Source: Parcubacteria group bacterium (GTDB lineage: Bacteria > Patescibacteriota > Minisyncoccia > Phycocordibacterales > UBA2135). Taken from it: a DNA stretch of 64,000 nt. A model generated the notes under the pieces. It searched no databases, was not told the DNA's origin, and worked only from the letters and a program-made list of their open reading frames with translations. How positions within the stretch are numbered: the stretch's first letter is position 1; each line of letters opens with the position of its first letter. This document shows positions 8,770 through 58,374 of this stretch, piece after piece. A program made the position numbers and the translations under genes. The stretch lies in contig JACPBB010000001.1 in the NCBI GenBank assembly GCA_016180525.1, positions 11,320-75,319 of the forward strand, given 5' to 3'.

Positions 8770-10437
8770 ATGATTTCGTCTCAAAGGACAGTGGCTATTT
8801 TTATTTTTTTTATAGGCTCTTTTTTATTGCCGCTTTTTTTAATTCCCGGATACTCTTATCTATTCTCAGAAGCGGGTAAATTCGTACTTTTTTTTATTAC
8901 CATACATGTATCGGCGGGGTTTTTATTATATTCATGGTGGAAAAACAACTCTATTGACCTGCCCGCCCATCCTCTTTTTGCATCTCTATACTGTATCTTT
9001 CTTTTTATTTTTCTTTCATCGCTTTTTTCAAAGTCATATTATGTTTCATGGATATACTTTATAAATCATGAAAACACATTTTTCTTTTTTTATCTTTTGT
9101 TTCTCGTACTGTTTTTGTCTATATATTTTTTAAAATATAAGCAAGTAATTTTATATATATATGAGATTATTCTTTTCTCCTTCGTAACCCTCATCCCATT
9201 AAGTGGGGCAATGAATTTTTTTAATAAATTGGGCTTCATTAAAAATATAGAATCATTTCTTGACACAACAACTAATGTCATTATATTTTCAGGACTTGTT
9301 GCCGTTGTTTCATTGCTTTTATATATATTTTCAGAAAGTAAGATGATGCGCGTGTTTCCAATTATTACACTTGTCCTTTCATCACTGATTCTCTTTTGCG
9401 CATTTAAAGAAGAGGCAAAACTTGCCCTTTCTTTTCCCGTTGAAAATATGGCTGTCTTACAAGAAACAATAAAAGAATCTCCCCTGCGAGCACTTTTAGG
9501 AAGTGGGCCTGGAACTGTTCAATATCAATACGATCTATACGCACCTGAAGAAACTCCCACACGATCGTGGAGTAGCAGTCTTTTAATCCAATTTGGACTT
9601 TTAGGTGGATTTGCGTGGATTGTATTTTTTATTTTATTTTTGTATTTTGGCATATGGTCATTTTTGGAAAAAAATGCTTTGGCAATTGGAAATTTTATTG
9701 TTGCTCTATACTTGTGGATTTTTGCCCTTCTATATCCAGTAAATTTTACCCTCGTTGCCTTTACATTTTTATTTACAGGCATTTGTATCACACTCCAAAT
9801 CATTAAAGATTCTGAAAACAAGATCATTATTCCATTACAAAAAAGAAGCTCTCGCGTTGTGTTTGCATGTTTGGTGGGCATTGTACTTTTTACAAGCACG
9901 CTTGGTATTATAGTTTATACAAAAAAATCAATTTCATATGCTTTTTATCAGAATGCTCTTGTGATTGAAAGTAAAGAATTATTTTTAGACACCGTGAAGC
10001 GGGCATTGCAGATTTCAAAAGAGGACATATATTACAGAAAGCTCGCGGATTTTTATATTAAAAAAACAGAGATGGCACAGGGCCTTGTTCTCTTTACTGA
10101 ACAGAATAAAAAAATAGTTGAATATGGCGGAAACGCCGTTTCTTATGCCAATGAAGCCGTTCGTATAAATCCGAGCGATTACAGAAATTGGGGGACGCTC
10201 GGAAACATATACCTTGTATTTGAAAGGTTGGGCGTACGCGGAGGATACGAGCTTGGAAAAAATGCTTATTCAGAAGCACAAAAACTAAGTCCCAAAAATG
10301 AAATATTGCTCTTGGAGCGCGCGGAGTTGGCGTTTCTTGCCAAAGATATTCATTTTAGGGAACTATTGAAAGAATTACTGCAATATAATCCACATAACAT
10401 AGAGGCTCAAAAAAGATTGCGTGAGTGGGGATTGTAA
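8770..10437 (+). CDS. polytopic membrane protein, O-antigen ligase (Wzy_C)/O-oligosaccharyltransferase-like, with C-terminal TPR repeats
   Basis: >=10 hydrophobic helices. Central loop GSGPGTVQYQYDLYAPEE...RSWSSSLLIQFGLLGG resembles a Wzy_C loop. The C-terminal ~150 aa has TPR-like repeats. Confidence 0.4.
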   Translation: MISSQRTVAIFIFFIGSFLLPLFLIPGYSYLFSEAGKFVLFFITIHVSAGFLLYSWWKNNSIDLPAHPLFASLYCIFLFIFLSSLFSKSYYVSWIYFINHENTFFFFYLLFLVLFLSIYFLKYKQVILYIYEIILFSFVTLIPLSGAMNFFNKLGFIKNIESFLDTTTNVIIFSGLVAVVSLLLYIFSESKMMRVFPIITLVLSSLILFCAFKEEAKLALSFPVENMAVLQETIKESPLRALLGSGPGTVQYQYDLYAPEETPTRSWSSSLLIQFGLLGGFAWIVFFILFLYFGIWSFLEKNALAIGNFIVALYLWIFALLYPVNFTLVAFTFLFTGICITLQIIKDSENKIIIPLQKRSSRVVFACLVGIVLFTSTLGIIVYTKKSISYAFYQNALVIESKELFLDTVKRALQISKEDIYYRKLADFYIKKTEMAQGLVLFTEQNKKIVEYGGNAVSYANEAVRINPSDYRNWGTLGNIYLVFERLGVRGGYELGKNAYSEAQKLSPKNEILLLERAELAFLAKDIHFRELLKELLQYNPHNIEAQKRLREWGL

Positions 10438-21067: not shown

Positions 21068-22403
21068 TTATGCGTGGACCTTGTTCAGTATCTTTAATTT
21101 CAAATCCCAAGTTTTCTATTTCTTTTCGGAGCGTATCCGCAACTGCCCAGTCTTCTTTTTTACGCGCTTCTTCACGTCTTTCTGCGATTTCTAGAACCTC
21201 TGCAGGTATCTCTTCTTTTTTTAGAACTTCAAGACCCAAACCCAATACTGCATCAAACAAAATAAGTGTTTTTTTCTTATCTTTTGGCGCGACAGTTTTA
21301 TCTTTAAGAATATCCCAAACAAGCGCAAGCGCTCGCGGAGTGTCTAGGTTGTCGCCTATATATTGTTTAAATTTTTTAACATGTTTGGCGGATTCTTCTC
21401 CAATATCTTCTCCTAATGCTCTATATTGCTCATAGAGCTTTTTTAGGGCATGTTCACTTGCTTCAAGTGCTTCCCACGTAAAATTAACCTGGGTTCTGTA
21501 ATGGACCTGCAAGAGAAAATATCGATAGGATAGGGGAGTAAACTCTTTTTTTACGATATCGGTAAGTGTCATAATATTTCCTTCCGATTTCGCCATTTTT
21601 TTTCCATCAACAAGTACAAATTCGTTGTGGAGCCAATAACGCGCAAGCGATTTCTCCGTTGCGCCCTCTGATTGCGCGATTTCATTTTCATGGTGGGGGA
21701 ATATGAGGTCTTTGCCGCCCGTGTGAATATCAAATCCTTCTCCGAGATATTTCATAGACATCGCAGAGCATTCAATGTGCCAGCCTGGACGTCCTTTTCC
21801 CAGAGAGGTTTCCCAAAACACATTCCCATCATCCTTGTTCCATGCCTTCCAAAGAACAAAATCTTGCGCGTCTTCCTTTTCATATTCATCATGTACAATG
21901 CGCGCGCCTTGTTTTAATTGAATATTTTTAAGTCCCGCAAGCTCCCCGTATTTTTTAAACGCAGAAATTTTAAAATATACAGAATTATCTTCTCCTTTAT
22001 ACGCAAGCCCACGGCGAAGTAAGGTTTCAATGAGTTCTACCATTTCGTCAATGTGATCAGTTGCTCGAACCAACTTGTGAGGAGTTAAAATGTTTAGCGT
22101 AGCAATATCTTCTTCAAAAAATTTTGTATATCTGTCAGTAAGAGCTCTCAATGAAACACCTTCTTCTTGAGAACGTTTAATTGTTTTGTCATCCACATCG
22201 GTAACATTCATTACTTGTGTAACTTTATAGCCATTCAAAACTAAGGCACGCCTTAAAAGATCCCATGTTGTAAATGAGCGCAAATTGCCAATGTGTGCTC
22301 TCCCATAAACCGTTGGCCCGCAATGATACATTGAAACATGCCCCTTTTTGAGGGGTTTAAACAGCTCTTTTTTTCTGGAGAGTGTGTTGTAGAGATGAAT
22401 CAT
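21057..22403 (-). CDS. cysS: cysteinyl-tRNA synthetase
   Basis: HIGH-type motif HIGNLRSF. KMSKS-type KMAKSEGN. Zinc-binding Cys residues. ~448 aa. Confidence 0.9.
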   Translation of the reverse strand: MIHLYNTLSRKKELFKPLKKGHVSMYHCGPTVYGRAHIGNLRSFTTWDLLRRALVLNGYKVTQVMNVTDVDDKTIKRSQEEGVSLRALTDRYTKFFEEDIATLNILTPHKLVRATDHIDEMVELIETLLRRGLAYKGEDNSVYFKISAFKKYGELAGLKNIQLKQGARIVHDEYEKEDAQDFVLWKAWNKDDGNVFWETSLGKGRPGWHIECSAMSMKYLGEGFDIHTGGKDLIFPHHENEIAQSEGATEKSLARYWLHNEFVLVDGKKMAKSEGNIMTLTDIVKKEFTPLSYRYFLLQVHYRTQVNFTWEALEASEHALKKLYEQYRALGEDIGEESAKHVKKFKQYIGDNLDTPRALALVWDILKDKTVAPKDKKKTLILFDAVLGLGLEVLKKEEIPAEVLEIAERREEARKKEDWAVADTLRKEIENLGFEIKDTEQGPRITKK

Positions 22404-22485
22404 AGGCGTTAGGCGTTAGGCGTTAGGCGTTAGGCAATCTCAATATTATTCCTAGTGCCTAATGCCTAGCTGCCAGTGCCTAAAC
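22404..22485. repeat. intergenic 7-nt-periodic palindromic element (ggcgtta x4 ... cctagtg/cctaatg arm)
   Basis: Tandem heptamers ggcgttaggcgttaggcgttaggc followed by cctagtgcctaatgcctagctgccagtgcctaa, between cysS and the corA-like gene. Confidence 0.6.
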
Positions 22486-24738: not shown

Positions 24739-24811
24739 CCTTTAGGCACTAGGCTCTAGGAAAAATTAAAAAACCTAACGCCTAAAGTCTGACGCCTAAA
24801 GCCTAAAACCT
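24739..24811. repeat. intergenic 7-nt-periodic palindromic element
   Basis: gcctttaggcactaggctctagg - A-rich spacer - cctaacgcctaaagtctgacgcctaaagcctaaaacc, between the ctpA-like gene and rplI. Confidence 0.55.
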
Positions 24812-36054: not shown

Positions 36055-37162
36055 TCCGAATTGCCTCTCGAGCGATTTTTAAAGCCGCGTCTTTTCTAAA
36101 AAACCCCTGTGCTTGTTTTTTCATTTCCTCCTGAAGGGCGCTGTTTTCCATAATCCGATTTATTTCCGAAAGTAACAAATGGGGAGTTAAATTTTTTTCT
36201 TCCATGACAATCGCCGCCCCAGAGCGAGCATAATTAAAAGCATTCTTCCGCTGATGGTCTCCATTCGATTTTGTTATTGGAACAATGATAGACGGAAGCC
36301 CCCATGAAGCAATTTCAAAAATAGTTGAGCCGGCACGTGATATAACGAGAGAAGCAACCCCAGCGGACATCCGAAGAGCAAGGGTGTGTAAATATCCAAA
36401 TGGTTTGTAGCGCCCAGTTTCGAGCCCCCCTTCTTTTAGAATCGCGAATGACATTTGCTCAGCGTTTTTTATATGAGCAACTCCTGTTTGATGAATTAGT
36501 TGATATTTTCCTATAAGCTGTGGGAGAGCATCCAGTATGACATTATTTATAATTTCAGCGCCCTGTGAACCGCCGAGAACAAGTATAACGGGAATATGTT
36601 CTTCAAGTTTGAGATATTCATATGCCCCTTCTTTAATTGGATTAGCAATATCTCTCCGTACAGGCTGCCCCACAACTGCAGTTTTTTCCTTTGGAAAGAA
36701 AGATGCCGCGCTATCCCACGAAACAGCAATCCGCTCTGCGAATTTACCGGCCCATATATTGCTCCTTCCTGGAATAGCGTCTGACTCATGGATGATAATT
36801 GGAATCCGAAAGATACGCGCCGCAAAAACGACGGGAACGCTCGCATATCCGCCCTTGCTGATTACGACGTCAGGATACAGATTGAATAATTTAAAAAGCG
36901 CCTGAATTGTACCAAGACAAAGTATAAACACGTCTATAATATTGAGCACGGAAAGATAACGTCTTAATTTACCGGAAAAAACGTGTTTAAAAGTGATGTT
37001 ATTTTCAAACAATGCTTTTTTATCAAACGGAGAAACCGACATATAAAAAATTTCCGGGTGCAAGAGTTTTTCCGTTTCAGCAATCTTATGTAACTCTTCC
37101 GCAATGGCGATAAGAGGGTAGAAATGTCCGGCAGTGCCTCCGCCGGTTAAAACAATTTTCAT
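36032..37162 (-). CDS. murG: UDP-N-acetylglucosamine--N-acetylmuramyl-(pentapeptide) pyrophosphoryl-undecaprenol N-acetylglucosamine transferase
   Basis: MKIVLTGGGTAGHFYPLIAIAEEL N-terminal G-loop plus the characteristic GT-B C-domain. Located in the dcw cluster context. Confidence 0.8.
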   Translation of the reverse strand: MKIVLTGGGTAGHFYPLIAIAEELHKIAETEKLLHPEIFYMSVSPFDKKALFENNITFKHVFSGKLRRYLSVLNIIDVFILCLGTIQALFKLFNLYPDVVISKGGYASVPVVFAARIFRIPIIIHESDAIPGRSNIWAGKFAERIAVSWDSAASFFPKEKTAVVGQPVRRDIANPIKEGAYEYLKLEEHIPVILVLGGSQGAEIINNVILDALPQLIGKYQLIHQTGVAHIKNAEQMSFAILKEGGLETGRYKPFGYLHTLALRMSAGVASLVISRAGSTIFEIASWGLPSIIVPITKSNGDHQRKNAFNYARSGAAIVMEEKNLTPHLLLSEINRIMENSALQEEMKKQAQGFFRKDAALKIAREAIRIALKHEK

Positions 37163-37230
37163 AGGCTTTAGGCTTTAGGCTTTAGGGATTAGGGATTACA
37201 TATTTTTCCTAACGCCTAGCGCCTAGTGCC
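37163..37230. repeat. intergenic 7-nt-periodic palindromic element between ftsW and murG
   Basis: ggctttaggctttaggctttagggattaggg - spacer - cctaacgcctagcgcctagtgcc. The arm ends 1 nt from the murG start codon. Confidence 0.6.
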
Positions 37231-38325
37231 TTAATTTTTACAATATCGAGATATATTCAAAATAATTCCCGAGCCAATAAACGTGAGAAGTAATGCTGTT
37301 CCTCCATGACTTATGAACGGAAGCGGTAGACCGGTGAGAGGAAAAATGGCGAGCATTGACCCAATGTTTAAAAACGCTTGGCCTGTTATAAGTATAACAA
37401 TTCCCACAACAGCGAGTCTAGAAAAATAATCAGGAGCTCTGTTCGCAATTTGAAATCCTCGTATCGCAAAAAACACAAATAGCAAAATGATAACGAGGGC
37501 GCCAATAAGACCGAATTCTTCCGCGGCGACTGCAAAAATTGAGTCGGAAATAGGCTCCGGTAAATACGTAAATTTTTGAACTCCATGCCCAAATCCCCTA
37601 CCCCATAATCCTCCGGAGCCAACAGCGATGAGTGCTTGCCCTATCTGCCAGCCAGCCCCCTGCACGTCGCTCCATGGGTTTATAAAAGTCAAAATACGCT
37701 CCGCCACATACGGCCGCGTATAAGCAAGCACGGTAAGTCCGACAATTGCCATAACGACAAGCGCGGCGATGTCCCGGAGACGAGCTCCGCTTGCAAAAAA
37801 TATTCCCACTGCGGCGGCAAGCATGACCGCAAGTGTTCCTGTATCCGGCTGTTTTAATAATATAAAACACACAATTCCCAAAAAAATAAAAAGTGGCAAA
37901 AGTCCGTAGGCAATTGTTTGTACCTTGAGACGAACGCCTGAAAACCACGCGGCAAGATAAAGCACCAATCCTAACTTTAATAACTCCGCTGGCTGAAACG
38001 AAAACGAACCAATCTCTACCCACCGAGACGCTCCTTTTAAGGTAAGCCCAATATCGGGAACAAAAACTAAAAGAGTCAGAATAATAGATGCAAGAAAAAT
38101 ATAGAATGAGTATTTTTTCCAAATTTTATAATTAATTTTTGAAACCAAAAAAAGCAGCGCGAGACCTGGTAAAAGCCCCAAAAAAACCTGATTAAAAATA
38201 ATTGATGACATCTTCGCTCCTTCTTCACGCGCAAGAAGGCCAAACGACGCAGAGAGAAAAATAAGAAATCCCCCTCCGGCAAGAAGCAATACGAGTGACA
38301 GAAACCATAGGTCAATTTTGTTCAT
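37231..38325 (-). CDS. ftsW: SEDS family peptidoglycan polymerase (FtsW/RodA)
   Basis: ~10 TM helices. Conserved SEDS segments. Position between murG and mraY. Confidence 0.7.
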   Translation of the reverse strand: MNKIDLWFLSLVLLLAGGGFLIFLSASFGLLAREEGAKMSSIIFNQVFLGLLPGLALLFLVSKINYKIWKKYSFYIFLASIILTLLVFVPDIGLTLKGASRWVEIGSFSFQPAELLKLGLVLYLAAWFSGVRLKVQTIAYGLLPLFIFLGIVCFILLKQPDTGTLAVMLAAAVGIFFASGARLRDIAALVVMAIVGLTVLAYTRPYVAERILTFINPWSDVQGAGWQIGQALIAVGSGGLWGRGFGHGVQKFTYLPEPISDSIFAVAAEEFGLIGALVIILLFVFFAIRGFQIANRAPDYFSRLAVVGIVILITGQAFLNIGSMLAIFPLTGLPLPFISHGGTALLLTFIGSGIILNISRYCKN

Positions 38326-38406
38326 AGGCGTTAGGCGTTAGGCGTTAGGCGTTAGGCGTTTTAGGATTTTAATTTTCCTAGAGCCTAGTGTCCTAGTGCC
38401 TAGAGC
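38326..38406. repeat. intergenic 7-nt-periodic palindromic element between mraY and ftsW
   Basis: ggcgttagg x5 - spacer - cctagagcctagtgtcctagtgcctagagcc. Confidence 0.6.
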
Positions 38407-39459
38407 CTAAATTAAAGCGATCACCATCCCTAAAATCGCGAGCACTCCGCTTAAAATCCAAAAGCGCATGGTAACCTTATACGCGGGCCATCCCAAAGCT
38501 TCAAAATGATGATGAATGGGCGCGATAAGAAATACTTTTCTACCAAATATTTTTTTTCCTATGAGTTGTACAATAACAGATGCCGGAGCGGCAAAGAGAA
38601 AAAAGGCAATGAGCGGCAAAACAATAACAGCCTTTGTAAGAAAGGCGACAACGGCAAGGGTCGTGGTAAGCCCTAAAATCCCCGTCTCTGACATATAGAA
38701 TCGCGCGGGAGGAATATTAAACCACAAAAACGCAAAGGTGCCTCCGGCAATGACACTGCAAAACGCCGCAAGGTCAATTTGGTTTTGAAAAAACGCGATT
38801 CCGGCATACGCGGCAAACGCAGTCGCAAGAATGCCCCCCGCAAGCCCGTCAAGCCCGTCAATAACCCCACCCGAAAAAAGAGCAAGCATGACAAGCATAA
38901 AGAAAGGTATAAAAAAAATCCCTAGAGAAATTTCCCCGAGAAACGGTATCGCGATAGTACTCACGCCCAATTTAACAAAAAACCACCATGCACCGATTGC
39001 CCCAATCCCTAAAACAGTAGCGATACGAAAAGACAATGGAAGCCCCCCGGCAACATATCCGCCTCGCCCAAACACAACTAAAAAATCATCAAATAATCCG
39101 ACACACGATGCCGCAAGAAGCGTAAAAAGGGGTAGCCAAGTTTGACTTCTGCTTAAAAAATTAAATTTTTCAGCTGCTTCCCCGGAAAATAGCTTTGATA
39201 GTAAAAAAAAGAATAAAACAGTAATAAGCGTTGAAAGCCAAATAATAATACCTCCCATACGCGGAGTGTTCGTTTCTTTTTCTTTATGAAGCGCGTTGAA
39301 AAGCGGCGTCTCCCCTCCTCCGAGCGCTTCATTCCGCGCTTTTTTTTTCCAAAGTTTATATTTATAGAGATAGTGCGTAACAAACGGAGTTATTGAAATG
39401 CCAATAGCAAACGCGACTGTCGCAGGAATAAATACTTTTAAGACGTTGATGATTTCCAT
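38407..39459 (-). CDS. mraY: phospho-N-acetylmuramoyl-pentapeptide transferase
   Basis: Polytopic membrane protein with MraY-type conserved loops (DD...DGLDGLAGG). dcw context. Confidence 0.8.
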   Translation of the reverse strand: MEIINVLKVFIPATVAFAIGISITPFVTHYLYKYKLWKKKARNEALGGGETPLFNALHKEKETNTPRMGGIIIWLSTLITVLFFFLLSKLFSGEAAEKFNFLSRSQTWLPLFTLLAASCVGLFDDFLVVFGRGGYVAGGLPLSFRIATVLGIGAIGAWWFFVKLGVSTIAIPFLGEISLGIFFIPFFMLVMLALFSGGVIDGLDGLAGGILATAFAAYAGIAFFQNQIDLAAFCSVIAGGTFAFLWFNIPPARFYMSETGILGLTTTLAVVAFLTKAVIVLPLIAFFLFAAPASVIVQLIGKKIFGRKVFLIAPIHHHFEALGWPAYKVTMRFWILSGVLAILGMVIALI

Positions 39460-39530
39460 GATACTAGGCTTTAGGCTTTAGGCTTTAGGAATTTCGTTTT
39501 TTCTAATGCCTAGCGCCTAGTGCCTCAATA
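39460..39530. repeat. intergenic 7-nt-periodic palindromic element immediately upstream of mraY, at the host-side edge of the GC-rich cassette
   Basis: ctaggctttaggctttaggctttagg - aatttcgttttttc - taatgcctagcgcctagtgcc. Confidence 0.6.
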
Positions 39531-39603
39531 ATATTATAACACTAAATAGACCTCGCTCAGAAGTTCGCCTCGTTAGAAATTCAGCCATTATTGTTTTTTA
39601 AAA

Positions 39604-39648
39604 TAAAAAAAGCCCCCCGAGCTACCGCGTAAGCAGTAGCATCGGGGG
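39604..39648 (-). terminator. intrinsic terminator downstream of the 566-aa GC-rich gene
   Basis: Minus-strand reading: cccccgatgctactgcttacgcggtagctcggggggc followed by ttttttt. Confidence 0.6.
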
Positions 39649-39717
39649 ACGTAGTTTGCTCTCCTCAAGAGTATTTCTCAACTAAAGAGGAGAAAAGAAC
39701 ATTGCCTTGTCGGACCG

Positions 39718-41418
39718 TTAGGCGTGGGCGTGGACCGTTGCGGCCTTCTTCGCCTTGGCCTTGCCCTTCTTGGCCTTCGGCTTGGGCGCGTCGGCGACCG
39801 CTTCGGTGGGAACTTCCTCGGGCTTCGAGGGAGTCTCCGGCGTGGCGGTCTTCTCGGCGGAGCGCCTGGCGATCTTGCCGAGCTCCCGAACGATCTTCTT
39901 GAACTCGTTCGGGTCCGTGAGAAGCGCCTTGTGCTTCTCCGGATACTCGACGGCCGTGATATCGCCGCCAGCTTCCGCGCGCGAGGCGAGGAAGTGGACC
40001 TGGAAGTGCTTCTTGCCCTTGCTGTCCCTCCAGGGGAACTTGATGAAGGAGTAGGACATGCCGGCCTTCGCGGGTTCGCCGAAGAAGTCCCCGAAGGAAA
40101 CGTTGGCCTTGCTGTTGTAGTTGTCCTTCTCCGTCTTGTACGCTTCATGTGCGTCTTCCTGCTTCTGGGCGCACTTGAACGCCCAGGAAAGCCGGCGGTA
40201 CAAGTCCTTCAAATTGCCGAACTCGTGCTGGTTGGGCACGAAGTAAGGCAACTCGAGATAGAACTTGTCCAGATCCTGGAGGGACTCCAGGGGAATCGCC
40301 CACGGGGCGATGCGGTGGCCGCGGTCGGAAACCGGCGAAGCGAGCGACGTCAAGGCCTCGGAGAGGGTCTGATAGACGACCTTTTCATAGCCTTCGCCGT
40401 CGTTCGGATACTCCATCGCCTTGCCGTCGACGACCTGAGGACCTTCGCGGGTAGGCGGTACAAGCGAGACGAAGATGCCCGTGTAGGGAACCTTGTTCCC
40501 GTCCTTGTCCTTCGACATGCGCGTGTCTTCAAACGCGCAGAGAAGGGCGCCGCCTTCGTGGGTCACGAATCGGACTTTCTTGTCCTGTGTGCCCCCCTTT
40601 TGCCGCGGGAACCAAACGTAGCAGGTTGCCGCTGGCACTTGCCGTGGCTTGCCGTCCTTGTCTCGACGTATGACGGTGGTCGTGAGATCTTTCTTGGTCA
40701 CCGAGCGGAACTCGGAGACCCACTTGACCGTCGCCTGGTTGCGAAACGCTGCGGACCCATCCTTGGTGTCGGCGCGGGAGACGAAGTATGCCCCGCGCGC
40801 CTTCTCCGAGAGGAGCATGAGAATGTTGAGGTCATAGACCTCGTTCTCGTACTCCTTGGTCGCGCCGATCCACGTGCCGTTGACCAAGGCGCCGATCGGG
40901 AGCTTCTCCTTGGAGGCGAAGATGATGTTTCGCTCCAAGCCGAACTGATTCATCCGTTCCGCCACGCTCGCAAGAGCACCATCCGGAACGATTTGGCCGA
41001 GCATCGCGGCGAGAAAATGAACTCCCGCCGTATGCATGAACCGGTCCTTCTGATCCCCAACGAAATTCTTGGCGTCGGGGAAAACGTCGACGTCGGCGTC
41101 ACAGAAGCGCTCGGCGGTCTTGACCATCTCCTCGGCGGAATGTCCCGCCTGAAGAAGCGCTGCCGCCTTCGTGGCGTACAGCGCGACGAATTCGGGAACC
41201 TGCGTCATGAGGGTGTTGAAAGCGCCCTCGTTTGCCGCTTGTTCCTCGGGCGTGGACTGGATCGTTGGCAGCGTGAAGCCGCCTGTCTTGGTGGTCTGCA
41301 TGGCTTTCGCCTCCTTGTGGTTGCCGTTTGGTTTTGACTCGTCAGGACGCCGAGTCACCTTGATGCCCTTTGCCTCCAGCGCTTGCTGGGTTTGGGGGTT
41401 GATGATCTCACCAGTCAT
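39718..41418 (-). CDS. hypothetical protein (566 aa) with C-terminal Lys/Ala/Pro-rich histone-H1-like tail; GC-rich, foreign composition
   Basis: ~60% GC, AAG/GCC codons. C-terminus PKPKAKKGKAKAKKAATVHAHA. Own -10-like TATAAT upstream and a hairpin + T-tract terminator downstream (39604..39648). Confidence 0.55.
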   Translation of the reverse strand: MTGEIINPQTQQALEAKGIKVTRRPDESKPNGNHKEAKAMQTTKTGGFTLPTIQSTPEEQAANEGAFNTLMTQVPEFVALYATKAAALLQAGHSAEEMVKTAERFCDADVDVFPDAKNFVGDQKDRFMHTAGVHFLAAMLGQIVPDGALASVAERMNQFGLERNIIFASKEKLPIGALVNGTWIGATKEYENEVYDLNILMLLSEKARGAYFVSRADTKDGSAAFRNQATVKWVSEFRSVTKKDLTTTVIRRDKDGKPRQVPAATCYVWFPRQKGGTQDKKVRFVTHEGGALLCAFEDTRMSKDKDGNKVPYTGIFVSLVPPTREGPQVVDGKAMEYPNDGEGYEKVVYQTLSEALTSLASPVSDRGHRIAPWAIPLESLQDLDKFYLELPYFVPNQHEFGNLKDLYRRLSWAFKCAQKQEDAHEAYKTEKDNYNSKANVSFGDFFGEPAKAGMSYSFIKFPWRDSKGKKHFQVHFLASRAEAGGDITAVEYPEKHKALLTDPNEFKKIVRELGKIARRSAEKTATPETPSKPEEVPTEAVADAPKPKAKKGKAKAKKAATVHAHA

Positions 41419-41509
41419 GGTGATTTCCTTTCTTTCTGTCTGTAGTTGTCAAGGTCTTAAAGGGTTTTTCCGTACAAAAAACGTACACCCTCTTCGTACT
41501 AATTGTTAT

Positions 41510-41563
41510 TATAGCAAAAAAGAAAGGCCCTGTCAAGTACCTTTCTAGGTTCCTGACAGGGCC
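41510..41563 (-). terminator. hairpin + T-tract after the 211-aa cassette gene, also containing a -10-like element for the 566-aa gene
   Basis: Minus-strand reading: ggccctgtcaggaacctagaaaggtacttgacagggcc tttctttttt gctataataacaa. Confidence 0.5.
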
Positions 41564-41588
41564 GCAAAAAACTCTTTACCTGTGAGCT

Positions 41589-42224
41589 TTAATCATCCCA
41601 CCGTCGCCGGGGATCAGCTTCCAACTTAGACATGTGCTCGGGAAGAAAAGACAGGCTTCCGACTTCACGAACGGAGACAACGATATCTCCGTCCTCATCT
41701 TTTGCTTCAATGAACATTGCGCGATGCTCGTCACCCAACTGTATTTTCACAAAAACAGGATTGAAAATGCCATCTTTGCCAGGATAGGCAAGGGGCTGAA
41801 GCGTTTCTGTCGCCCATCCTTTCTTACTTGTCCTTACCATATCGTGCATTGAGAAGCCGAACGGAAATCGCTCTGTTGCTCCTTTTCGTCCGCAGATCAT
41901 GAAGTGACGCGGGTTCTTCCGCTGTAACAACAGCCAATGAAGCGGCTGTGCGAGAGCGCGGCGTGCCCCTGGAAAAGTGATATTCGTTTCCTCTCCGCTG
42001 AACACACGCCCCGGTATGTATGAATATGCAGGAAGCGCGACGTGCACAACCGGCTTACCCTTGTTGCTTCCATGCACTACTAAGTTTGTTTTGAGTGCTT
42101 CAAGTTCCTTGGTCCAATCTGAAAGTTCTGAAGAGAGCGGAAGGTCAAAATTAAGTTGAAAAGCGATTCTCAAAAACGGTGCATCCACCCCAATGGGGTA
42201 GAATTTCCGAGTTTCATTCGTCAT
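41589..42224 (-). CDS. hypothetical protein (211 aa), middle gene of the GC-rich cassette
   Basis: ORF with ~50% GC. Start overlaps the stop of the upstream nuclease gene (ATGA). Followed by a hairpin terminator at 41510..41563. Confidence 0.45.
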   Translation of the reverse strand: MTNETRKFYPIGVDAPFLRIAFQLNFDLPLSSELSDWTKELEALKTNLVVHGSNKGKPVVHVALPAYSYIPGRVFSGEETNITFPGARRALAQPLHWLLLQRKNPRHFMICGRKGATERFPFGFSMHDMVRTSKKGWATETLQPLAYPGKDGIFNPVFVKIQLGDEHRAMFIEAKDEDGDIVVSVREVGSLSFLPEHMSKLEADPRRRWDD

Positions 42225-43690
42225 ATTCCGACCTCCGTTCCATGCTTGGGATAGGCAAACCGTTCGCTGTCCTTGCCCGTAAGATATCGCGTTGCTTGCG
42301 AGAACTCGGCGTGAACAACAACGATTCGTTTGGGAGAGAGCATGTCCACCATGCGCTCAAACTCCCCCTCTTCCTGGTGAGAAGAGGTCGCGAGTCGGTG
42401 CACCTCGCACCGCACTTCATATGTGTCATGCCCGATTTCTATCGTGCATGGATCCGAACTAGCTCCAATACTAACCTCTTCAGCGGCACCATGACGATGC
42501 GCAAGTAAGGCTGTACCGGGCGAACAGGGGTCTTGCCAATTATTGATGACAAACGAGACGTCTGCGTGTTCCACGCCACGAGTAAGCCACCAATGAGCGG
42601 GGCTTCGGTCGGGAAACATGCCTCCGGCAGCAACAACAATCGCATGCCGGCTGCGAAGCACTTCTTCACGCTCCCGCTTGCCGTGGATAAACGTGAGGTT
42701 CTCAAGCAGATGCTGCTGCTCCGGTTCTAAACACTCTTTGAATATTTGAAGCGCCCTGTCTCCGCCATCAATATAGAGCTTTGCGACCTTTTCAAGGCCG
42801 GCATTGCGAATCCGTGCAATGTTGTCCGGCTCACGATGGATGGAAAGCGACGGTACCACCACAATCCCTCCACGGTTAAGTGTCCCGAGAAAACTGTCGC
42901 TCTCAAGGAAACCCTCAACGGGAGTTTCAAGCGGATCCGGAATTTTGCCCAAATTGGTACCATCCGGAATCAACATGTCTATTTTAATGTCAGGACGCAC
43001 TGCGCCCCTGATGAAAATCTGGTCTTTATCGGACGTGTCCCCTGTCGCAAGCACACGGGCCTCTCCGCCATTTGAAAGCTTCTGGCAGAAAAGAAACGAA
43101 GCCGCGCCAAGAATATGCCCTGCCGGAATTACAACCATTGTGAGGGTGGGATTCAACTCAATCATCTCACCAAAGTGTATAATTCGCACATACTCTTCAA
43201 GCGTATCAATATCGTGTTCATCAAAAAGCGGCTGATGACCTTTCCAGTCAGGATTCCGCTTCATTGAATTAACTGTCTGGGTTAACTGATGTTTCGTAAA
43301 TCGCCACGCGGGCCCCGTCATCCAAATACGCAACGAGTCTGGCGTAAGAGACGGGTTTGCCGCGAGCATTAACTTAAACTGAAGCGCAAGCGCTCCGATA
43401 TGGTCAAGATGAGCGTGGGTAATTACAATATCTCGTATCCCCATAAGTGCACCGATGTTTTTGTACAAAACATGGGGAAGTGCTTTCTTGTATGTCTCTG
43501 GTGCCCACGAAACGCGTGGCCGAGTTCCAGATTCAAGCTGAACTTCATATCCTAAAAAGTTCAGAACATATAAAGCTGCTCCAATTTCACGAACTGCGCC
43601 GTACCCAGTGAAAGAAATATCACGCGGGGAGGGAGCCCGAGTTCGGTTCATTTTGTACATCTTTCGTTTAGCTATTCTGTGTGGTGTCAT
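42221..43690 (-). CDS. metallo-beta-lactamase fold nuclease of the beta-CASP family (RNase J/CPSF73/SNM1-like)
   Basis: N-terminal GYGAVREIGAALYVLNFLGYEVQLESG. Motif 2 VITHAHLDHIGAL. Beta-CASP-like AGHILGAASF. C-terminal VVVHAE. First gene of the GC-rich cassette. Confidence 0.6.
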   Translation of the reverse strand: MTPHRIAKRKMYKMNRTRAPSPRDISFTGYGAVREIGAALYVLNFLGYEVQLESGTRPRVSWAPETYKKALPHVLYKNIGALMGIRDIVITHAHLDHIGALALQFKLMLAANPSLTPDSLRIWMTGPAWRFTKHQLTQTVNSMKRNPDWKGHQPLFDEHDIDTLEEYVRIIHFGEMIELNPTLTMVVIPAGHILGAASFLFCQKLSNGGEARVLATGDTSDKDQIFIRGAVRPDIKIDMLIPDGTNLGKIPDPLETPVEGFLESDSFLGTLNRGGIVVVPSLSIHREPDNIARIRNAGLEKVAKLYIDGGDRALQIFKECLEPEQQHLLENLTFIHGKREREEVLRSRHAIVVAAGGMFPDRSPAHWWLTRGVEHADVSFVINNWQDPCSPGTALLAHRHGAAEEVSIGASSDPCTIEIGHDTYEVRCEVHRLATSSHQEEGEFERMVDMLSPKRIVVVHAEFSQATRYLTGKDSERFAYPKHGTEVGI

Positions 43691-43866
43691 TTCGTCCTTC
43701 CTGCTGTTGTTTTAAGCCAGAATTGGCCTAATTTTTTTCAATGTTCCATTCAATGCTTATAATACTACATTACTATAAAAAAGTCAACCCCGATAATATT
43801 ATCAGCAAGGACGATCGTCAGGCTTCTAAAGAAGTCTCAACACCATCGAAGTGTCCATTTCACATT

Positions 43867-44799
43867 TTAAAGTTGCAATGTTTTAAGTGCCGCGAATATA
43901 AGCTGTTCGGCGTCTGAAAAACGTTCGTCAGGAGTTGACCCGAGCACGACAACCGCAATCGGCCGCATAGGCCCTGCATCAAAAATGAGCGCGAAATTTC
44001 CTCCGGCAAGATCAGTTGTCCCCGTCTTTGAGGCGACAATTCCCGGAAATGTTTCAACAAACTTATTCGTATTTTCAAGATTGTGTACTGCCCCATCAAG
44101 AGAGTGCGTCGTAAGCAAAAGATGTGTCGTTGCTTCCATTAAATGCGGATGCTCTCTCTCTACGTATCCAAGAAGACGCGCGAAGTCCTGCGCCGAGCCG
44201 TATGCGCCGCTTACTCCGAGATTTATATCAAACCCCGTTTCATTGATAAAAAATGTTTGACTGAGTCCTATTTGTTTTGCTTTTTGGTTTAACGCTTCTG
44301 TAAGTGGACTCTGTCCAGACGCAAATGAATCTCTGCCGCCAGAAGTGATTACAGACGCAAGCGCATGAGCTCCATCATTTGACGAAGTCAAGAGTGTTGC
44401 GTCAATTAAATCTTTTAAGCGCCAGCGCTCTCCGACGAGAAATCCATGGTCCCCTTCTTCTAAAATTGCTTCCTTGCTTACTATGGCAATACCGTCTTCT
44501 CCCTGTTCCTCAAGAGCGATGAGCGCGGTCATAATTTTAGTAAGGGAAGCGAGAGGAAGTTGTGCTTCTCCGTTTAATGAATATAAAGGCTTCTTTTTTT
44601 CTATATCAAAAACAAATGCCGCTTTTGCTTTAAGGTGTATGAGTGAAAACGGGTCAGGGACTAAAAGTTGTTTTATGTGCTCTTCTTCCGGAGACGTAAG
44701 AATATTCGTTTGTATTAACACCATGCGCCCAAATAAAAAAAGAAAAAAGACGAGCGCAAGCCCGGAAACAATAATGTGGTCTTTGTTCTTAAAATTCAT
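43867..44799 (-). CDS. D-alanyl-D-alanine carboxypeptidase, serine peptidase S11 (PBP5-like)
   Basis: N-terminal TM. SxxK (SLTK), SxN (SSN) and KTG (KTGTT) active-site motifs in the correct order. Confidence 0.75.
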   Translation of the reverse strand: MNFKNKDHIIVSGLALVFFLFLFGRMVLIQTNILTSPEEEHIKQLLVPDPFSLIHLKAKAAFVFDIEKKKPLYSLNGEAQLPLASLTKIMTALIALEEQGEDGIAIVSKEAILEEGDHGFLVGERWRLKDLIDATLLTSSNDGAHALASVITSGGRDSFASGQSPLTEALNQKAKQIGLSQTFFINETGFDINLGVSGAYGSAQDFARLLGYVEREHPHLMEATTHLLLTTHSLDGAVHNLENTNKFVETFPGIVASKTGTTDLAGGNFALIFDAGPMRPIAVVVLGSTPDERFSDAEQLIFAALKTLQL

Positions 44800-44865
44800 A
44801 AAAATTTAGGGTTTAGCGGATAGCGTTTAGACGAAACTGAACCCTAAACGCTGTACGCTAAACGC
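44800..44865. repeat. intergenic palindromic element, sequence variant (gggtttagcg / cgctaaacgc arms)
   Basis: gggtttagcggatagcgtttag - spacer - ccctaaacgctgtacgctaaacgc. Same architecture with different heptamers. Confidence 0.45.
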
Positions 44866-45411
44866 TTATTCTTCTTGATTTTGAAATGTTTCTTCAAATA
44901 CTTTTACTTCGTTCTGAACTGTTTCATATTCAGGCAGCTGTGAAATACGGGTTATGCCCAAATATTGAAGTAATTCAAACGCAGGTCGGTATAACAAAAT
45001 TCGCTTGTCTTTTTCATCTACGATCCTTTCAATTAAACCACGAACAAGCAAGTTTCTCAAAATAAATTGCGAGTTTACGCCACGAATAAAATCAATATTA
45101 CTTTTATTGATCGGGCCACGATAGAGAATGAGCGTAAGTGTTTCAAGAGCCGCGCGAGAAAGCTCCGCGGTAAGCTCTGCTTTTGTTATCTCGGCAAGAA
45201 GCTCTCCGTGTTCAGGCGCGCTCCCCAGCATAACGGTATCTTCTTTAAATAGCAACCTCACACCGCGCCCTTCCAAATTTTTTTCAAGCAACAAAAGAGC
45301 CTCTTTGACTTCTTCTTCCGCAACTTTTAAATGCTTAGCTAAAAAAGCTATACGCACAGGTTCTGCTTTTAAGAAAAGAATCGCTTCAATTTTTTGCTCT
45401 AGGTTAGACAT
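44866..45411 (-). CDS. scpB: segregation and condensation protein B
   Basis: Tandem winged-helix pattern (IEAILFL...EPVRIAFLAKHL...; LETLTLILYRGPINKSNIDFIRGV) typical of ScpB. Adjacent to scpA. Confidence 0.7.
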   Translation of the reverse strand: MSNLEQKIEAILFLKAEPVRIAFLAKHLKVAEEEVKEALLLLEKNLEGRGVRLLFKEDTVMLGSAPEHGELLAEITKAELTAELSRAALETLTLILYRGPINKSNIDFIRGVNSQFILRNLLVRGLIERIVDEKDKRILLYRPAFELLQYLGITRISQLPEYETVQNEVKVFEETFQNQEE

Positions 45412-55457: not shown

Positions 55458-55538
55458 GTTACTAGGCTTTAGGCTTTAGGCTTTAGGCTTTAGGAATCGT
55501 TGTTTTTTCCTAGTGCCTAGCGCCTTAACGCCTAGTGC
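55458..55538. repeat. intergenic 7-nt-periodic palindromic element between rpoA and rplQ
   Basis: ctaggctttagg x4 - aatcgttgttttttc - ctagtgcctagcgccttaacgcctagtgcc. Confidence 0.6.
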
Positions 55539-57815: not shown

Positions 57816-57902
57816 GATACTAGGCTTTAGGCTTTAGGCTTTAGGCTTTAGGAATATTATTATTTCTTCCTAGTGCCTAGTGCCTAATGTCTAGTCCCTG
57901 AA
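57816..57902. repeat. intergenic 7-nt-periodic palindromic element between rpsM and rpsK
   Basis: ctaggctttagg x4 - aatattattatttcttc - ctagtgcctagtgcctaatgtctagtccc. Confidence 0.6.
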
Positions 57903-58283: not shown

Positions 58284-58374
58284 GATACTAGGCTTTAGGC
58301 TTTAGGCTTTAGGCTTTAGGAATATCATTGCTTTCTCCCTAGCGCCTAGTGCCTAATGTCTAGTGCCTGAATTA
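58284..58374. repeat. intergenic 7-nt-periodic palindromic element between rpmJ and rpsM
   Basis: ctaggctttagg x4 - aatatcattgctttctcc - ctagcgcctagtgcctaatgtctagtgcc. Near-identical to the 57816 copy. Confidence 0.6.

What the first reader, a model, noticed from the sequence alone, without database searches (positions are those of the whole stretch)
39531..43866. GC-rich three-gene cassette of foreign composition inserted between mraY and the PBP-like gene of the dcw cluster
The rest of the window is ~35-38% GC, with Lys encoded mostly as AAA and strongly AT-rich third positions. From about 39.65 to 43.7 kb, GC rises to ~55-65% (39721..39780 is about two-thirds G+C). In this segment Lys is AAG and Ala is GCC/GCG. 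The segment holds three co-directional minus-strand genes: a beta-CASP MBL nuclease (42221..43690) whose stop overlaps the start of a 211-aa ORF (ATGA at 42221..42224), a hairpin and T-tract, then a 566-aa ORF (39718..41418) with its own TATAAT-like element and a terminator at 39604..39648. GC falls toward the 5' end of the first gene, and the 176 bp upstream (43691..43866) is host-like and AT-rich. This fits an ameliorating junction or a host promoter driving the cassette. The cassette interrupts an otherwise canonical murG-ftsW-mraY / PBP-like gene string. No integrase, tRNA or terminal direct repeats are visible, so the acquisition mechanism is unclear. The gene combination (beta-CASP nuclease, unknown protein, large protein with an H1-like DNA-binding tail) does not match a system I can name.
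Basis: partly seen in the sequence, partly recalled or inferred. Interest (0 to 1): 0.85.

Follow-up and report, generated by a model that had tools for sequence, protein, structure and literature searches.

The report
Recoded, hyper-structured orphan gene beside RNase
A three-gene module (an RNA-cutting enzyme, a small partner and a large orphan protein) sits inside the cell-wall gene cluster of a few tiny Paceibacterota bacteria, and its GC-richness is not a scar of recent gene transfer: it is a long-maintained synonymous recoding that gives the large gene's mRNA an unusually strong fold, which I know of no precedent for in bacteria.

Summary
Only the 566-aa gene (39718-41418, minus) is about 61% GC (GC3 0.81). 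The beta-CASP gene and the 211-aa gene are about 50% GC (GC3 0.49 and 0.48), against a host GC3 of 0.20-0.42.

In 62 of 74 related Paceibacterota loci the S11 peptidase gene abuts mraY, so the cassette is an insertion. It is not recent foreign DNA:
- The same cassette occupies this site in at least 7 other lineages.
- The large protein is only 38-47% identical among them, yet its GC3 stays 0.72-0.88, always above the host's.
- The internal spacers have host-like composition.
- No donor exists among 1.84 billion protein representatives.

In all nine lineages the large gene follows a terminator hairpin whose 3' arm carries the -35 box of a near-consensus promoter. Its coding RNA folds far more stably than synonymous-codon shuffles (z -4 to -8; 27 control genes +1.4 to -3.1), and the start region stays open.

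Best reading: selection keeps this mRNA GC-recoded and highly structured. I infer that this makes it long-lived or resistant to single-strand RNases such as the co-encoded CPSF73-like nuclease. The proteins' functions remain unknown.

The parts
43759..43787 (-). Promoter of the beta-CASP/ORF211 operon (TTGACT-17-TATTAT). The palindrome GATAATATTATC lies just upstream, at about 43790-43801.
   Evidence: (10 of 12 consensus matches). The same TTGACT...TAGTAT(T/C)AT arrangement precedes the beta-CASP gene in L001, L003, L004 and L034 (sequences).
42221..43690 (-). CPSF73/aCPSF1-like beta-CASP metallo-beta-lactamase ribonuclease, 489 aa (or 476 aa from a later ATG). It has no KH domains. GC3 is 0.49.
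   Evidence: The HxHxDH motif, motif 3 His, motif 4 Asp and beta-CASP motifs B and C are invariant in 9 cassette homologues. dN/dS is 0.09-0.17.
41589..42224 (-). ORF211, translationally coupled to the nuclease gene (ATGA overlap). It is a beta-rich orphan with a possible DUF1795/DcrB/Mog1-PsbP-like fold. GC3 is 0.48.
41526..41563 (-). Terminator hairpin of the upstream operon (GGCCCTGTCAGG...CTTGACAGGGCC plus a T-run). Its 3' arm contains the -35 box of the ORF566 promoter.
   Evidence: (I7). The motif CCTGTC-N(4-34)-CTTGACAGG-N(14-15)-TAKAMT occurs in about 1.3 Mb of Paceibacterota loci only upstream of the large gene, in all nine carrier lineages. It is unique in the window.
41508..41536 (-). 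ORF566 promoter: TTGACA, 17-nt spacer with TG, TATAAT (12 of 12 consensus).
   Evidence: Conserved as TATAAT/TATACT/TAGAAT with 16-17 nt spacing in the orthologues.
41419..41507 (-). 5' UTR of ORF566 with a canonical AGGA Shine-Dalgarno sequence. The -30..+30 region is kept weakly structured.
   Evidence: Initiation-window MFE is -9.1 against -17.5 +/- 4.5 kcal/mol for internal 60-nt windows, and the start is less structured than the body in all nine lineages.
39718..41418 (-). ORF566, a 62.7-kDa cytoplasmic orphan protein. Predicted layout: disordered basic N-terminus, helical domain, beta-rich domain, long helix plus beta/alpha C-terminal domain, and a variable Lys/Ala tail. GC is 0.607 and GC3 is 0.81. 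The CDS is hyper-structured.
   Evidence: Excess folding over synonymous shuffles: z -4.1 to -5.7 here and -4.0 to -11.5 in 8 other lineages. No fold or family match.
39604..39648 (-). Intrinsic terminator of ORF566 (CCCCCG...CGGGGGG plus a T-run).
43867..44799 (-). Left flank: S11 D-Ala-D-Ala carboxypeptidase gene, which normally abuts mraY.
38407..39459 (-). Right flank: mraY, with its own TATAAT-containing spacer and a heptamer-repeat element at 39463-39530.

Best explanation
This is a lineage-restricted accessory module of a small Paceibacterota (Parcubacteria) clade. It was inserted long ago between the S11 peptidase gene and mraY, and it has since been inherited, diversified and occasionally swapped within the clade.

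It has two transcription units:
1. A CPSF73-like beta-CASP ribonuclease translationally coupled to a small beta-rich partner (ORF211).
2. A monocistronic large orphan gene (ORF566). It is driven by a consensus sigma-70 promoter whose -35 box lies in the 3' arm of the upstream terminator hairpin, and it is closed by its own terminator.

The GC-richness is not foreign ancestry. It is a selectively maintained synonymous recoding of ORF566 towards C/G-ending codons, arranged so that the coding RNA forms much more local secondary structure than its amino-acid sequence and codon usage require. The ribosome-binding region stays open.

Shown here: the insertion, the conservation, the gene-confined GC3 excess, the excess structure and the promoter/terminator architecture.

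Inferred: this design yields an abundant, long-lived mRNA that resists single-strand-specific RNases, plausibly including the co-encoded nuclease. ORF566 would then continue to be made whether or not that nuclease is active. ORF566 is probably a nucleic-acid-binding protein, and ORF211 is probably an adaptor of the nuclease. Whether the module serves defence or dormancy, or housekeeping RNA metabolism, is open.
For: Insertion:
- S11 abuts mraY in 62 of 74 related loci.

Antiquity and inheritance:
- The same cassette lies at the same site in L001, L004-7, L008, L010/11, L032 and L034, and next to mraY in L003.
- Carriers W, L001, L004, L010 and L032 form one clade in the MraY+FtsW+MurG NJ tree.
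- Pairwise identities are 38-47% for ORF566, 49-56% for ORF211, 57-68% for the beta-CASP and 70-83% for MraY.
- All three genes are under purifying selection (dN/dS 0.09-0.29).

Selection rather than ancestry for the GC content:
- The large gene's GC3 is 0.72-0.88 in every lineage and always above the host's (0.31-0.67).
- The spacers are host-like.
- The family has 4 clusters plus one weak relative among 1.84 billion representatives, and none in phage or plasmid collections.

Not the genome's usage in highly expressed genes:
- Ribosomal proteins, rpoA and dnaK have TTC/(TTC+TTT) 0.12 and AAG/(AAG+AAA) 0.25, against 0.90 and 0.93 in ORF566.

Structure:
- Native CDS against synonymous shuffles gives z -4.1 to -7.9 in nine large genes.
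- 13 window genes give +1.2 to -3.1, and 14 equally GC3-rich genes of GC-rich relatives give +1.4 to -1.5.
- The signal is stronger on the sense strand in 8 of 9 lineages, and the start region is open in 9 of 9.

Architecture:
-.

Nuclease competence:
- The catalytic residues are invariant, and CPSF73/FttA/IntS11 are the best solved relatives.

Nucleic-acid binding hint:
- The tail is basic in W and in L004/P0010, and is a C2H2 zinc finger in L032.
Against: - There are no expression, half-life or nuclease-specificity data, so the link between the structured mRNA and the adjacent RNase rests on adjacency only.
- ORF211 shows no excess structure (z 0.1) and the beta-CASP gene only a mild one (z -2.65). 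dnaK reaches -3.1, so part of the effect could be a general trait of highly expressed genes.
- The folding test uses predicted MFE in 150-nt windows, not probing data.
- Homology of the type A and type B large proteins is not demonstrable by sequence (hhalign E 0.07-0.5). It rests on position, the shared promoter hairpin and the beta-CASP homology.
- The carrier clade comes from an unbootstrapped NJ tree that lacks L003 and L034.
- There is cassette/host incongruence: L010 is sister to L004 by host genes, but their beta-CASP proteins are only 31% identical. Together with the other genomic contexts (L009, L159, L171, L191), this shows the module has moved or been replaced at times.
Confidence: 0.45

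Rival explanations
1. Recent or recurrent horizontal acquisition from a GC-rich donor. Under this view the composition is an unameliorated foreign signature, possibly delivered repeatedly to the same site by a site-specific element.
For: - The cassette is an insertion relative to the ancestral S11-mraY adjacency.
- Its distribution is patchy, at 2 of 74 species representatives.
- Type A and type B cassettes are incongruent with the host tree.
- There is a sharp identity breakpoint at the 3' end of S11 between L004 and L006.
- The module occurs in other contexts, twice beside a large serine recombinase and tRNA genes.
Against: - GC excess is confined to third codon positions of one gene, and the spacers are host-like.
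- The excess persists across orthologues with saturated divergence and exceeds the host GC3 even in a GC-rich host.
- No homologue exists outside these Paceibacterota contexts in 1.84 billion representatives, phages, plasmids or IMG/VR.
- No integrase, tRNA or reproducible flanking repeat is present in the window or in the mraY-linked copies.
- In L159 and L171 the tRNA lies between the recombinase and the nuclease gene, so the module is probably outside that element.
- A foreign origin does not explain the excess RNA structure.
Confidence: 0.1
2. Ordinary translational selection. ORF566 would be an extremely abundant protein whose codons are optimised for speed and accuracy (C-ending NNY codons, AAG, GAG), and the extra RNA structure would be incidental.
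For: - The promoter is a perfect consensus and the gene has its own terminators.
- There is a strong NNC over NNU preference.
- The initiation region is open.
- dnaK and rpoA show a mild excess of structure.
Against: - Ribosomal proteins S4, S11, S13 and L13, together with rpoA and dnaK, show no shift at all towards the ORF566 codon set. L25 and L31 in L003 do not either.
- Codon optimisation does not predict z -4 to -8 against shuffles that keep the codon usage.
Confidence: 0.15
3. GC-biased gene conversion at a recombination hot spot raises the GC content of the cassette.
For: There is evidence of recombination or replacement at this locus.
Against: - The effect is gene-confined. The flanks where crossovers would occur (S11, mraY) and the internal spacers are not GC-enriched, and the neighbouring beta-CASP and ORF211 genes are only mildly raised.
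- It does not explain the ordered pairing.
Confidence: 0.05
4. The RNA, or an antisense product, is the real functional entity. This could be a long structured RNA, or the 537-aa antisense ORF (39724-41337, plus strand), with the sense ORF secondary.
For: - RNA structure is exceptional along the whole CDS.
- A near full-length antisense ORF exists.
Against: - The sense protein is conserved, with in-frame indels and dN/dS 0.22-0.29.
- The antisense frame is codon-aligned, so it stays open simply because TTA, CTA and TCA codons are rare (0, 0 and 1).
- Antisense ORF length is not conserved: 400 aa in L034 and 270 aa in L009.
- There is no Rfam match.
Confidence: 0.07
5. Assembly chimera or contaminant join.
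For: Abrupt composition change in a metagenome-assembled genome.
Against: - Two independent assemblies are 100% identical across both ORF566 junctions.
- The same gene order is found in at least 8 independent assemblies of related species.
Confidence: 0.01

Closest known systems
CPSF73 / archaeal aCPSF1 (FttA) / IntS11 / Thermus TTHA0252 beta-CASP ribonucleases
   Same: The first gene has the MBL and beta-CASP catalytic motifs and the RMMBL C-terminal domain. These proteins are its best solved relatives (E 1.6e-14 to 1e-8).
   Different: It has no KH domains. It scores far below the aCPSF1, RNase J and Cas14 equivalog cutoffs. It is coupled to an orphan partner and restricted to a few Paceibacterota. 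Its substrate is unknown.
MazF-type mRNA interferases with cleavage-site-free (ACA-less) resistant mRNAs (own knowledge; functional analogy only)
   Same: The idea is an RNase encoded next to, or acting alongside, a transcript whose sequence has been shaped so that it escapes cleavage and stays translatable.
   Different: There is no homology. Resistance here would come from global GC3 recoding and structure rather than from the absence of a motif. No antitoxin is evident, and nuclease toxicity and specificity are untested.
Horizontally acquired genomic islets of atypical composition
   Same: It is an insertion into a conserved gene string, with patchy distribution and atypical GC and codon usage.
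   Different: The atypical composition is confined to coding third positions, is conserved over saturating divergence, and comes with ordered RNA pairing. No mobility genes or repeats are present in the window.
Selection for local mRNA secondary structure in bacterial coding regions, and genome-scale ordered RNA structure of RNA viruses (own knowledge)
   Same: The native sequence folds more stably than synonymous permutations.
   Different: The magnitude is much larger (z -4 to -8, with MFE about twice that of neighbouring genes). The effect is restricted to one gene family in an AT-rich DNA genome and is coupled to a GC3 shift of about 0.45.
Type VII CRISPR-Cas Cas14 beta-CASP effector
   Same: There is weak profile similarity (NF045584, E 3e-17) and it belongs to the same nuclease superfamily.
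   Different: It scores 62 bits against a cutoff of 800. The window has no CRISPR array or Cas5/Cas7 genes.
DUF1795 / DcrB / EagR-SciW (Mog1-PsbP-like) adaptor fold
   Different: The scores are marginal. There is no sequence similarity and no T6SS or Rhs context.

Membership tests
beta-CASP metallo-beta-lactamase nucleases (CPSF73-like branch) | MBL motifs 1-4, including HxHxDH | tested here: met
   H92, H94, D96, H97, H192 and D218 are invariant in 9 homologues. Lactamase_B scores 24 bits against a 22.7-bit cutoff. Motif 1 is Glu instead of Asp in the type A copies.
beta-CASP metallo-beta-lactamase nucleases (CPSF73-like branch) | beta-CASP motifs A (acidic), B (His) and C (His), plus the RMMBL C-terminal domain | tested here: met
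   There is an acidic residue before the invariant T245, and H438 and H460 are invariant. PF07521 scores 33.7 bits against a 21.6-bit cutoff. PF10996 (Beta-Casp) is detected in the L159 homologue.
Archaeal aCPSF1/FttA (TIGR03675 equivalog) | N-terminal KH domains and a full-length score above the cutoff | tested here: not met
   It scores 82.9 bits against a cutoff of 580. The match starts at profile position 162, and there is no KH hit.
RNase J | Score above the subfamily cutoff | tested here: not met
   24 bits against 400.
Type VII CRISPR Cas14 | Equivalog score, plus a CRISPR array and Cas5/Cas7 partners | tested here: not met
   62 bits against 800. There is no array in the window, and the neighbours are dcw and housekeeping genes.
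Recently acquired genomic island | Atypical composition over the whole inserted segment, intergenic DNA included | tested here: not met
   The spacers are 0.36-0.42 GC. The excess lies in third codon positions, mainly of one gene.
Recently acquired genomic island | Mobility signatures (integrase, tRNA target, flanking direct repeats) | tested here: not met
   No tRNA was found. The only flanking repeat (13 of 15 nt) is reached by 11 of 200 shuffles and is absent from the other carriers. Serine recombinases occur only beside distant homologues, and a tRNA separates them from the module.
Recently acquired genomic island | Absent from close relatives, with composition decaying over time | tested here: not met
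   It is present at the same site in the nearest relatives. GC3 is not decayed at 38-47% protein identity.
Known anti-phage defence systems (PADLOC-DB 2.0) | Significant match of any component | tested here: not met
   There is no hit for the nuclease or ORF211. ORF566 has only E 0.04-0.07 noise hits.
Toxin-antitoxin / mRNA-interferase-like module | A growth-arresting RNase neutralised by a cognate partner | not testable with these tools
   This needs expression and toxicity assays. Only the gene coupling of the nuclease and ORF211 is shown.
DUF1795 / Mog1-PsbP-like fold (ORF211) | Significant structural superposition | tested here: inconclusive

The most novel reading that the evidence does not exclude
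The module is a composition- and structure-based selective-expression device. When the CPSF73-like nuclease (with ORF211) is active, it degrades ordinary AU-rich, weakly folded RNA of the cell or of an invading phage. The ORF566 mRNA has been recoded to GC3 of about 0.8 and folded along its whole length, but left open at the start codon. It would escape and be translated preferentially. This would be a natural counterpart of engineered 'single-protein production' and possibly a new kind of defence or dormancy system in ultra-small symbiotic bacteria.
Probability: 0.15. Interest if true: 0.85.

Novelty: categorically new. Interest (0 to 1): 0.72.

Why it matters
- Atypical GC content and codon usage are the standard criteria for calling horizontal transfer. 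Here an extreme anomaly (GC3 0.81 in a genome at about 0.35) is shown to be maintained by selection on a single gene across deeply diverged lineages. This is a clear counter-example for island-calling methods.
- It points to strong, gene-specific selection on mRNA structure or composition in organisms thought to have weak selection on codon usage.
- It defines a testable three-gene module with two orphan folds, linked to an RNA nuclease, in the poorly understood Candidate Phyla Radiation.
- If the nuclease and resistant-mRNA reading is right, it would be a new principle of post-transcriptional self/non-self discrimination.
- The terminator-embedded consensus promoter is a compact expression cassette of possible practical use.

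Tried and rejected
- Family searches: Pfam, PHROGs, NCBIfam and PADLOC on ORF211 and ORF566 gave nothing.
- PDB sequence profiles gave nothing.
- Searches in IMG/VR, INPHARED phages and PLSDB plasmids gave no relatives of ORF566 or of the nuclease.
- The flanking 15-nt direct repeat (43788-43802 and 39523-39537) was tested as an att site or target-site duplication. It is not significant and not shared by other carriers.
- Antisense-gene idea: the antisense frame is open as a trivial by-product of codon bias.
- Rfam returned only spurious miRNA-like hairpin hits.
- Homology between type A and type B large proteins by hhalign is not significant. Only a weak bridge through P0011 and L034 exists (E 5e-5, 1e-4, 1e-4).
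- 'Cargo of a serine-recombinase element': in L159 and L171 a tRNA gene overlaps the recombinase 3' end and lies between it and the nuclease gene, so the module is more likely the chromosomal flank.
- Literature searches for a described counterpart found none.

Full report
**Source and anatomy**

The window comes from a Parcubacteria/Paceibacterota metagenome-assembled genome; ORF566 is identical to NCBI HYT93_00280.

Between mraY (38407-39459) and an S11 D-Ala-D-Ala carboxypeptidase gene (43867-44799) lie three minus-strand ORFs:
- A 489-aa beta-CASP metallo-beta-lactamase nuclease (42221-43690).
- A 211-aa ORF whose ATG overlaps the nuclease stop codon (41589-42224).
- A 566-aa ORF (39718-41418).

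The nuclease hits RMMBL above its cutoff and resembles aCPSF1, CPSF73 and IntS11 most closely, but it falls far below every equivalog cutoff and lacks KH domains. Its catalytic residues are invariant in nine cassette homologues.

ORF211 and ORF566 match no family in Pfam, PHROGs, NCBIfam, PADLOC or PDB sequences.

**Composition**

By gene:

| Gene | GC | GC3 |
|---|---|---|
| ORF566 | 0.607 | 0.813 |
| beta-CASP nuclease | 0.505 | 0.494 |
| ORF211 | 0.489 | 0.481 |
| Neighbouring genes | 0.39-0.44 | 0.33-0.42 |

- ORF566 is the extreme outlier among the window's 61 ORFs.
- Its GC3 is high along the whole gene, at 0.60-1.00 per 30 codons.
- The three spacers are 0.42, 0.41 and 0.36 GC.
- Codon choice is inverted relative to the genome: AAG 93% against 18%, TTC 90% against 13%, ATC 83% against 14.5%.
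- Ribosomal proteins S4, S11, S13 and L13, with RpoA and DnaK in the same window, use the ordinary AT-ending set.

The 55-65% figure applies only to ORF566, and the anomaly is not a contiguous block.

**Not an artefact**

Two independent assemblies are 100% identical over 39463-41447 and 39661-41654. The arrangement recurs in other species' assemblies, as described next.

**Comparative context**

The ORF566 family is tiny: three proteins by word-indexed search, and four clusters plus one weak relative among 1.84 billion representatives.

Their contigs show the same block, scpA-scpB-S11-[nuclease-ORF21x-ORF55x]-mraY-ftsW-murG-gltX-M23:
- L001 (GCA_030695745).
- L004-L007 (GCA_036517675 and metagenomes).
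- L008 (a partial contig).
- L003, where prfA lies upstream instead.

A more distant version, type B, occupies the same site in L010/L011 and L032. Its nuclease is about 31% identical to the window's. In L010 it carries extra small ORFs, and its large protein is unrecognisable by sequence. L034 carries an intermediate version.

In a scan of GTDB species representatives with MraY, 74 loci had enough upstream sequence. In 64 of them S11 is the nearest upstream ORF, and in 62 it lies within 300 nt. Only L032 and L034 carry the cassette.

That junction also holds other small unknown ORFs in L013, L017, L038 and L042.

In an NJ tree of MraY+FtsW+MurG, the carriers with enough flank (W, L001, L004, L010, L032) fall in one clade together with the non-carrier L042. 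The tree is unbootstrapped.

**Why the GC content is not a foreign signature**

- Across carriers the large protein is 38-47% identical and MraY is 70-83% identical, so synonymous sites have turned over many times.
- Even so, the large gene's GC3 is 0.81, 0.81, 0.72, 0.77, 0.74, 0.88, 0.81, 0.79, 0.83 and 0.75-0.78 in W, L001, L003, L004, L008, L010, L032, L034, L009, and L191/L159 respectively.
- It is always above the local background of 0.31-0.67, including the GC-rich host of L032.
- The companion genes are only about 0.1 above the host.
- Neutral amelioration would have erased such a difference. Holding GC3 at 0.8 against a bias that gives 0.35 implies selection, or a selection-like bias, of roughly S = ln(7.4), about 2. 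This figure is my own calculation.
- No GC-rich donor is detectable anywhere.

**A conserved expression architecture**

In all nine lineages, including those whose large proteins are no longer alignable, the large gene is preceded by a hairpin, CCTGTCA(R)G-loop-CTTGACAGG, followed by a T-run and TATAAT, TATACT or TAGAAT at 16-17 nt.

In the window this is a 12-of-12 consensus promoter whose -35 box is the 3' arm of the ORF211 terminator. Loop length varies from 4 to 30 nt, which argues for a hairpin rather than a dimeric operator.

In about 1.3 Mb of Paceibacterota loci the pattern occurs nowhere else. It is also unique in the window.

A pattern scan of metagenomes recovered three further modules:
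- L159 and L171: nuclease gene, hairpin, then the large gene or the contig end.
- L191: nuclease, hairpin, a P0011-like large gene, then NUDIX and FtsH.

**Excess RNA structure**

I folded each CDS in 150-nt windows and compared it with permutations that keep the protein sequence and the codon counts.

| Set | z-score |
|---|---|
| Large gene, W | -4.1 (-5.7 in a second run) |
| Large gene, other eight lineages | -4.7 to -7.9 |
| 13 other window genes | +1.2 to -3.1 (median near 0) |
| 14 ordinary genes, GC3 0.69-0.82, from GC-rich relatives | +1.4 to -1.5 |
| beta-CASP gene | -2.65 |
| ORF211 | 0.1 |

- Absolute stability is about double that of neighbouring genes: -56 to -73 against -25 to -35 kcal/mol per 150 nt.
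- The excess is larger on the sense strand in 8 of 9 lineages.
- The -30..+30 region is markedly less structured than the body in all nine.
- Together with canonical Shine-Dalgarno sequences, a consensus promoter and flanking terminators, this looks like design for an abundant, stable and efficiently initiated mRNA.

**The proteins**

- dN/dS between L004 and L008 is 0.09-0.17 for the nuclease, 0.24 for ORF211 and 0.22-0.29 for the N-terminal third of the large gene. All three are therefore real coding genes, and the two orphans evolve fast.
- The AF2 model of ORF566 (pLDDT 72) shows a disordered basic N-terminus, a helical domain, a beta-rich middle, and a long helix plus a beta/alpha C-terminal domain. 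No significant PDB or BFVD neighbour was found.
- The C-terminal appendage varies. It is a Lys/Ala-rich tail in W and in L004/P0010, is absent in L001 and L003, and is a C2H2 zinc finger in L032. This hints at nucleic-acid binding.

**Evolutionary dynamics**

Cassette and host histories are not fully congruent:
- L010 is sister to L004 by host genes but carries the type B cassette.
- L004 and L006 are about 100% identical from the nuclease gene through M23, yet only 74-89% identical in S11 and scpB. The breakpoint is at the 3' end of S11. This is either recombination at the cassette boundary or a chimeric assembly.
- In L159 and L171 a large serine recombinase lies upstream of the nuclease gene, but a tRNA gene overlaps its 3' end and separates the two. 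I read this as an integration hot spot next to the module, not as proof that the module is cargo.

**Interpretation**

Shown:
- An old, clade-restricted insertion.
- Two transcription units.
- A catalytically intact CPSF73-like nuclease coupled to an orphan partner.
- An orphan large gene under persistent selection for GC-ending codons and for intramolecular pairing, behind a terminator-embedded consensus promoter.

Inferred: the recoding makes the mRNA long-lived or resistant to single-strand RNases. The genetic linkage suggests that the co-encoded nuclease is the relevant enzyme.

Rivals, each weighed in its own section: recurrent transfer, plain codon optimisation, biased gene conversion, an antisense or RNA-only product, and assembly chimerism. 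None accounts for the gene-confined, conserved and structure-ordered signal.

I found no described counterpart in the searchable literature.

I rate the module as not assignable to any known system. The functional model remains a hypothesis.

Noticed in passing
window 39463-39530, 55463-55525, 57821-57888, 58289-58357; also 22403-22435, 24770-24806, 37162-37193, 38325-38360, 44789-44885: Heptamer-repeat elements, (TAGGCTT)n or (TAGGCGT)n, are often paired with an inverted (CCTAGTG)n arm to form long imperfect hairpins. They sit in intergenic spacers directly abutting start codons of host genes (mraY, ftsW, murG, rpsK, rpsM and others), but not of the cassette genes, which use plain Shine-Dalgarno sequences. 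They probably explain the spurious Rfam mir-5045 hit and the contig break of the Logan assembly at 39463.
   Followed up: partly
L004 about 8335 versus L006 (3' end of the S11 gene): Two contigs are about 100% identical from the nuclease gene through M23 (more than 10 kb). They are only 74-89% identical at the protein level in S11 and scpB, with four-fold-site divergence of 0.45-0.49. This is either a recombination breakpoint exactly at the left cassette boundary or a chimeric metagenome assembly.
   Followed up: partly
L112 707-1153 (minus), IMG/VR UViG_3300025313_000658: An AT-rich phage-like contig (GC3 0.12-0.22) has one 148-aa orphan ORF with GC3 0.63 immediately downstream of the same kind of CCTGTCA...CTTGACAGG hairpin promoter. 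GC3-recoded genes behind this promoter type may therefore exist outside the cassette.
   Followed up: partly
L159 2287-3822 and L171 8710-10440: Large serine recombinase genes (the L171 gene is split) have 3' ends that overlap tRNA genes (Arg-TCT and His-GTG). They lie just upstream of distant homologues of the nuclease and large-gene module. L171 also carries a reverse transcriptase and an N6/N4 methyltransferase.
   Followed up: partly
L017 7583-8515; L042 9318-9899; L013 2299-2619; L038 3130-3564: Other unknown ORFs (106-310 aa) occupy the S11-mraY junction in non-carrier relatives. The L017 ORF has GC3 0.57 against 0.40. The junction seems to be a recurrent insertion point. None has a Pfam match.
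   Followed up: partly
L032 about 9760-9832 (C-terminus of the large protein): The type B large protein ends in a C2H2-type zinc finger (FSCPKCNF...HMKKHE; zf-H2C2_5 E 7e-4), which is rare in bacteria. It sits where the window's protein has an H1-like Lys/Ala tail.
   Followed up: partly
L009 1701-2510: The gene downstream of the distant large-protein homologue P0011 encodes a 269-aa protein with a sub-threshold cold-shock (CSD) RNA-binding domain (24.1 bits against a 27-bit cutoff) and raised GC3 of 0.60.
   Followed up: no
window 43790-43801 and 39526-39537: The palindrome GATAATATTATC lies just upstream of the nuclease promoter's -35 box, and a related ATAATATTAT lies in the mraY promoter region. 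This could be an operator shared by the two promoters. As a flanking direct repeat it is not significant.
   Followed up: partly
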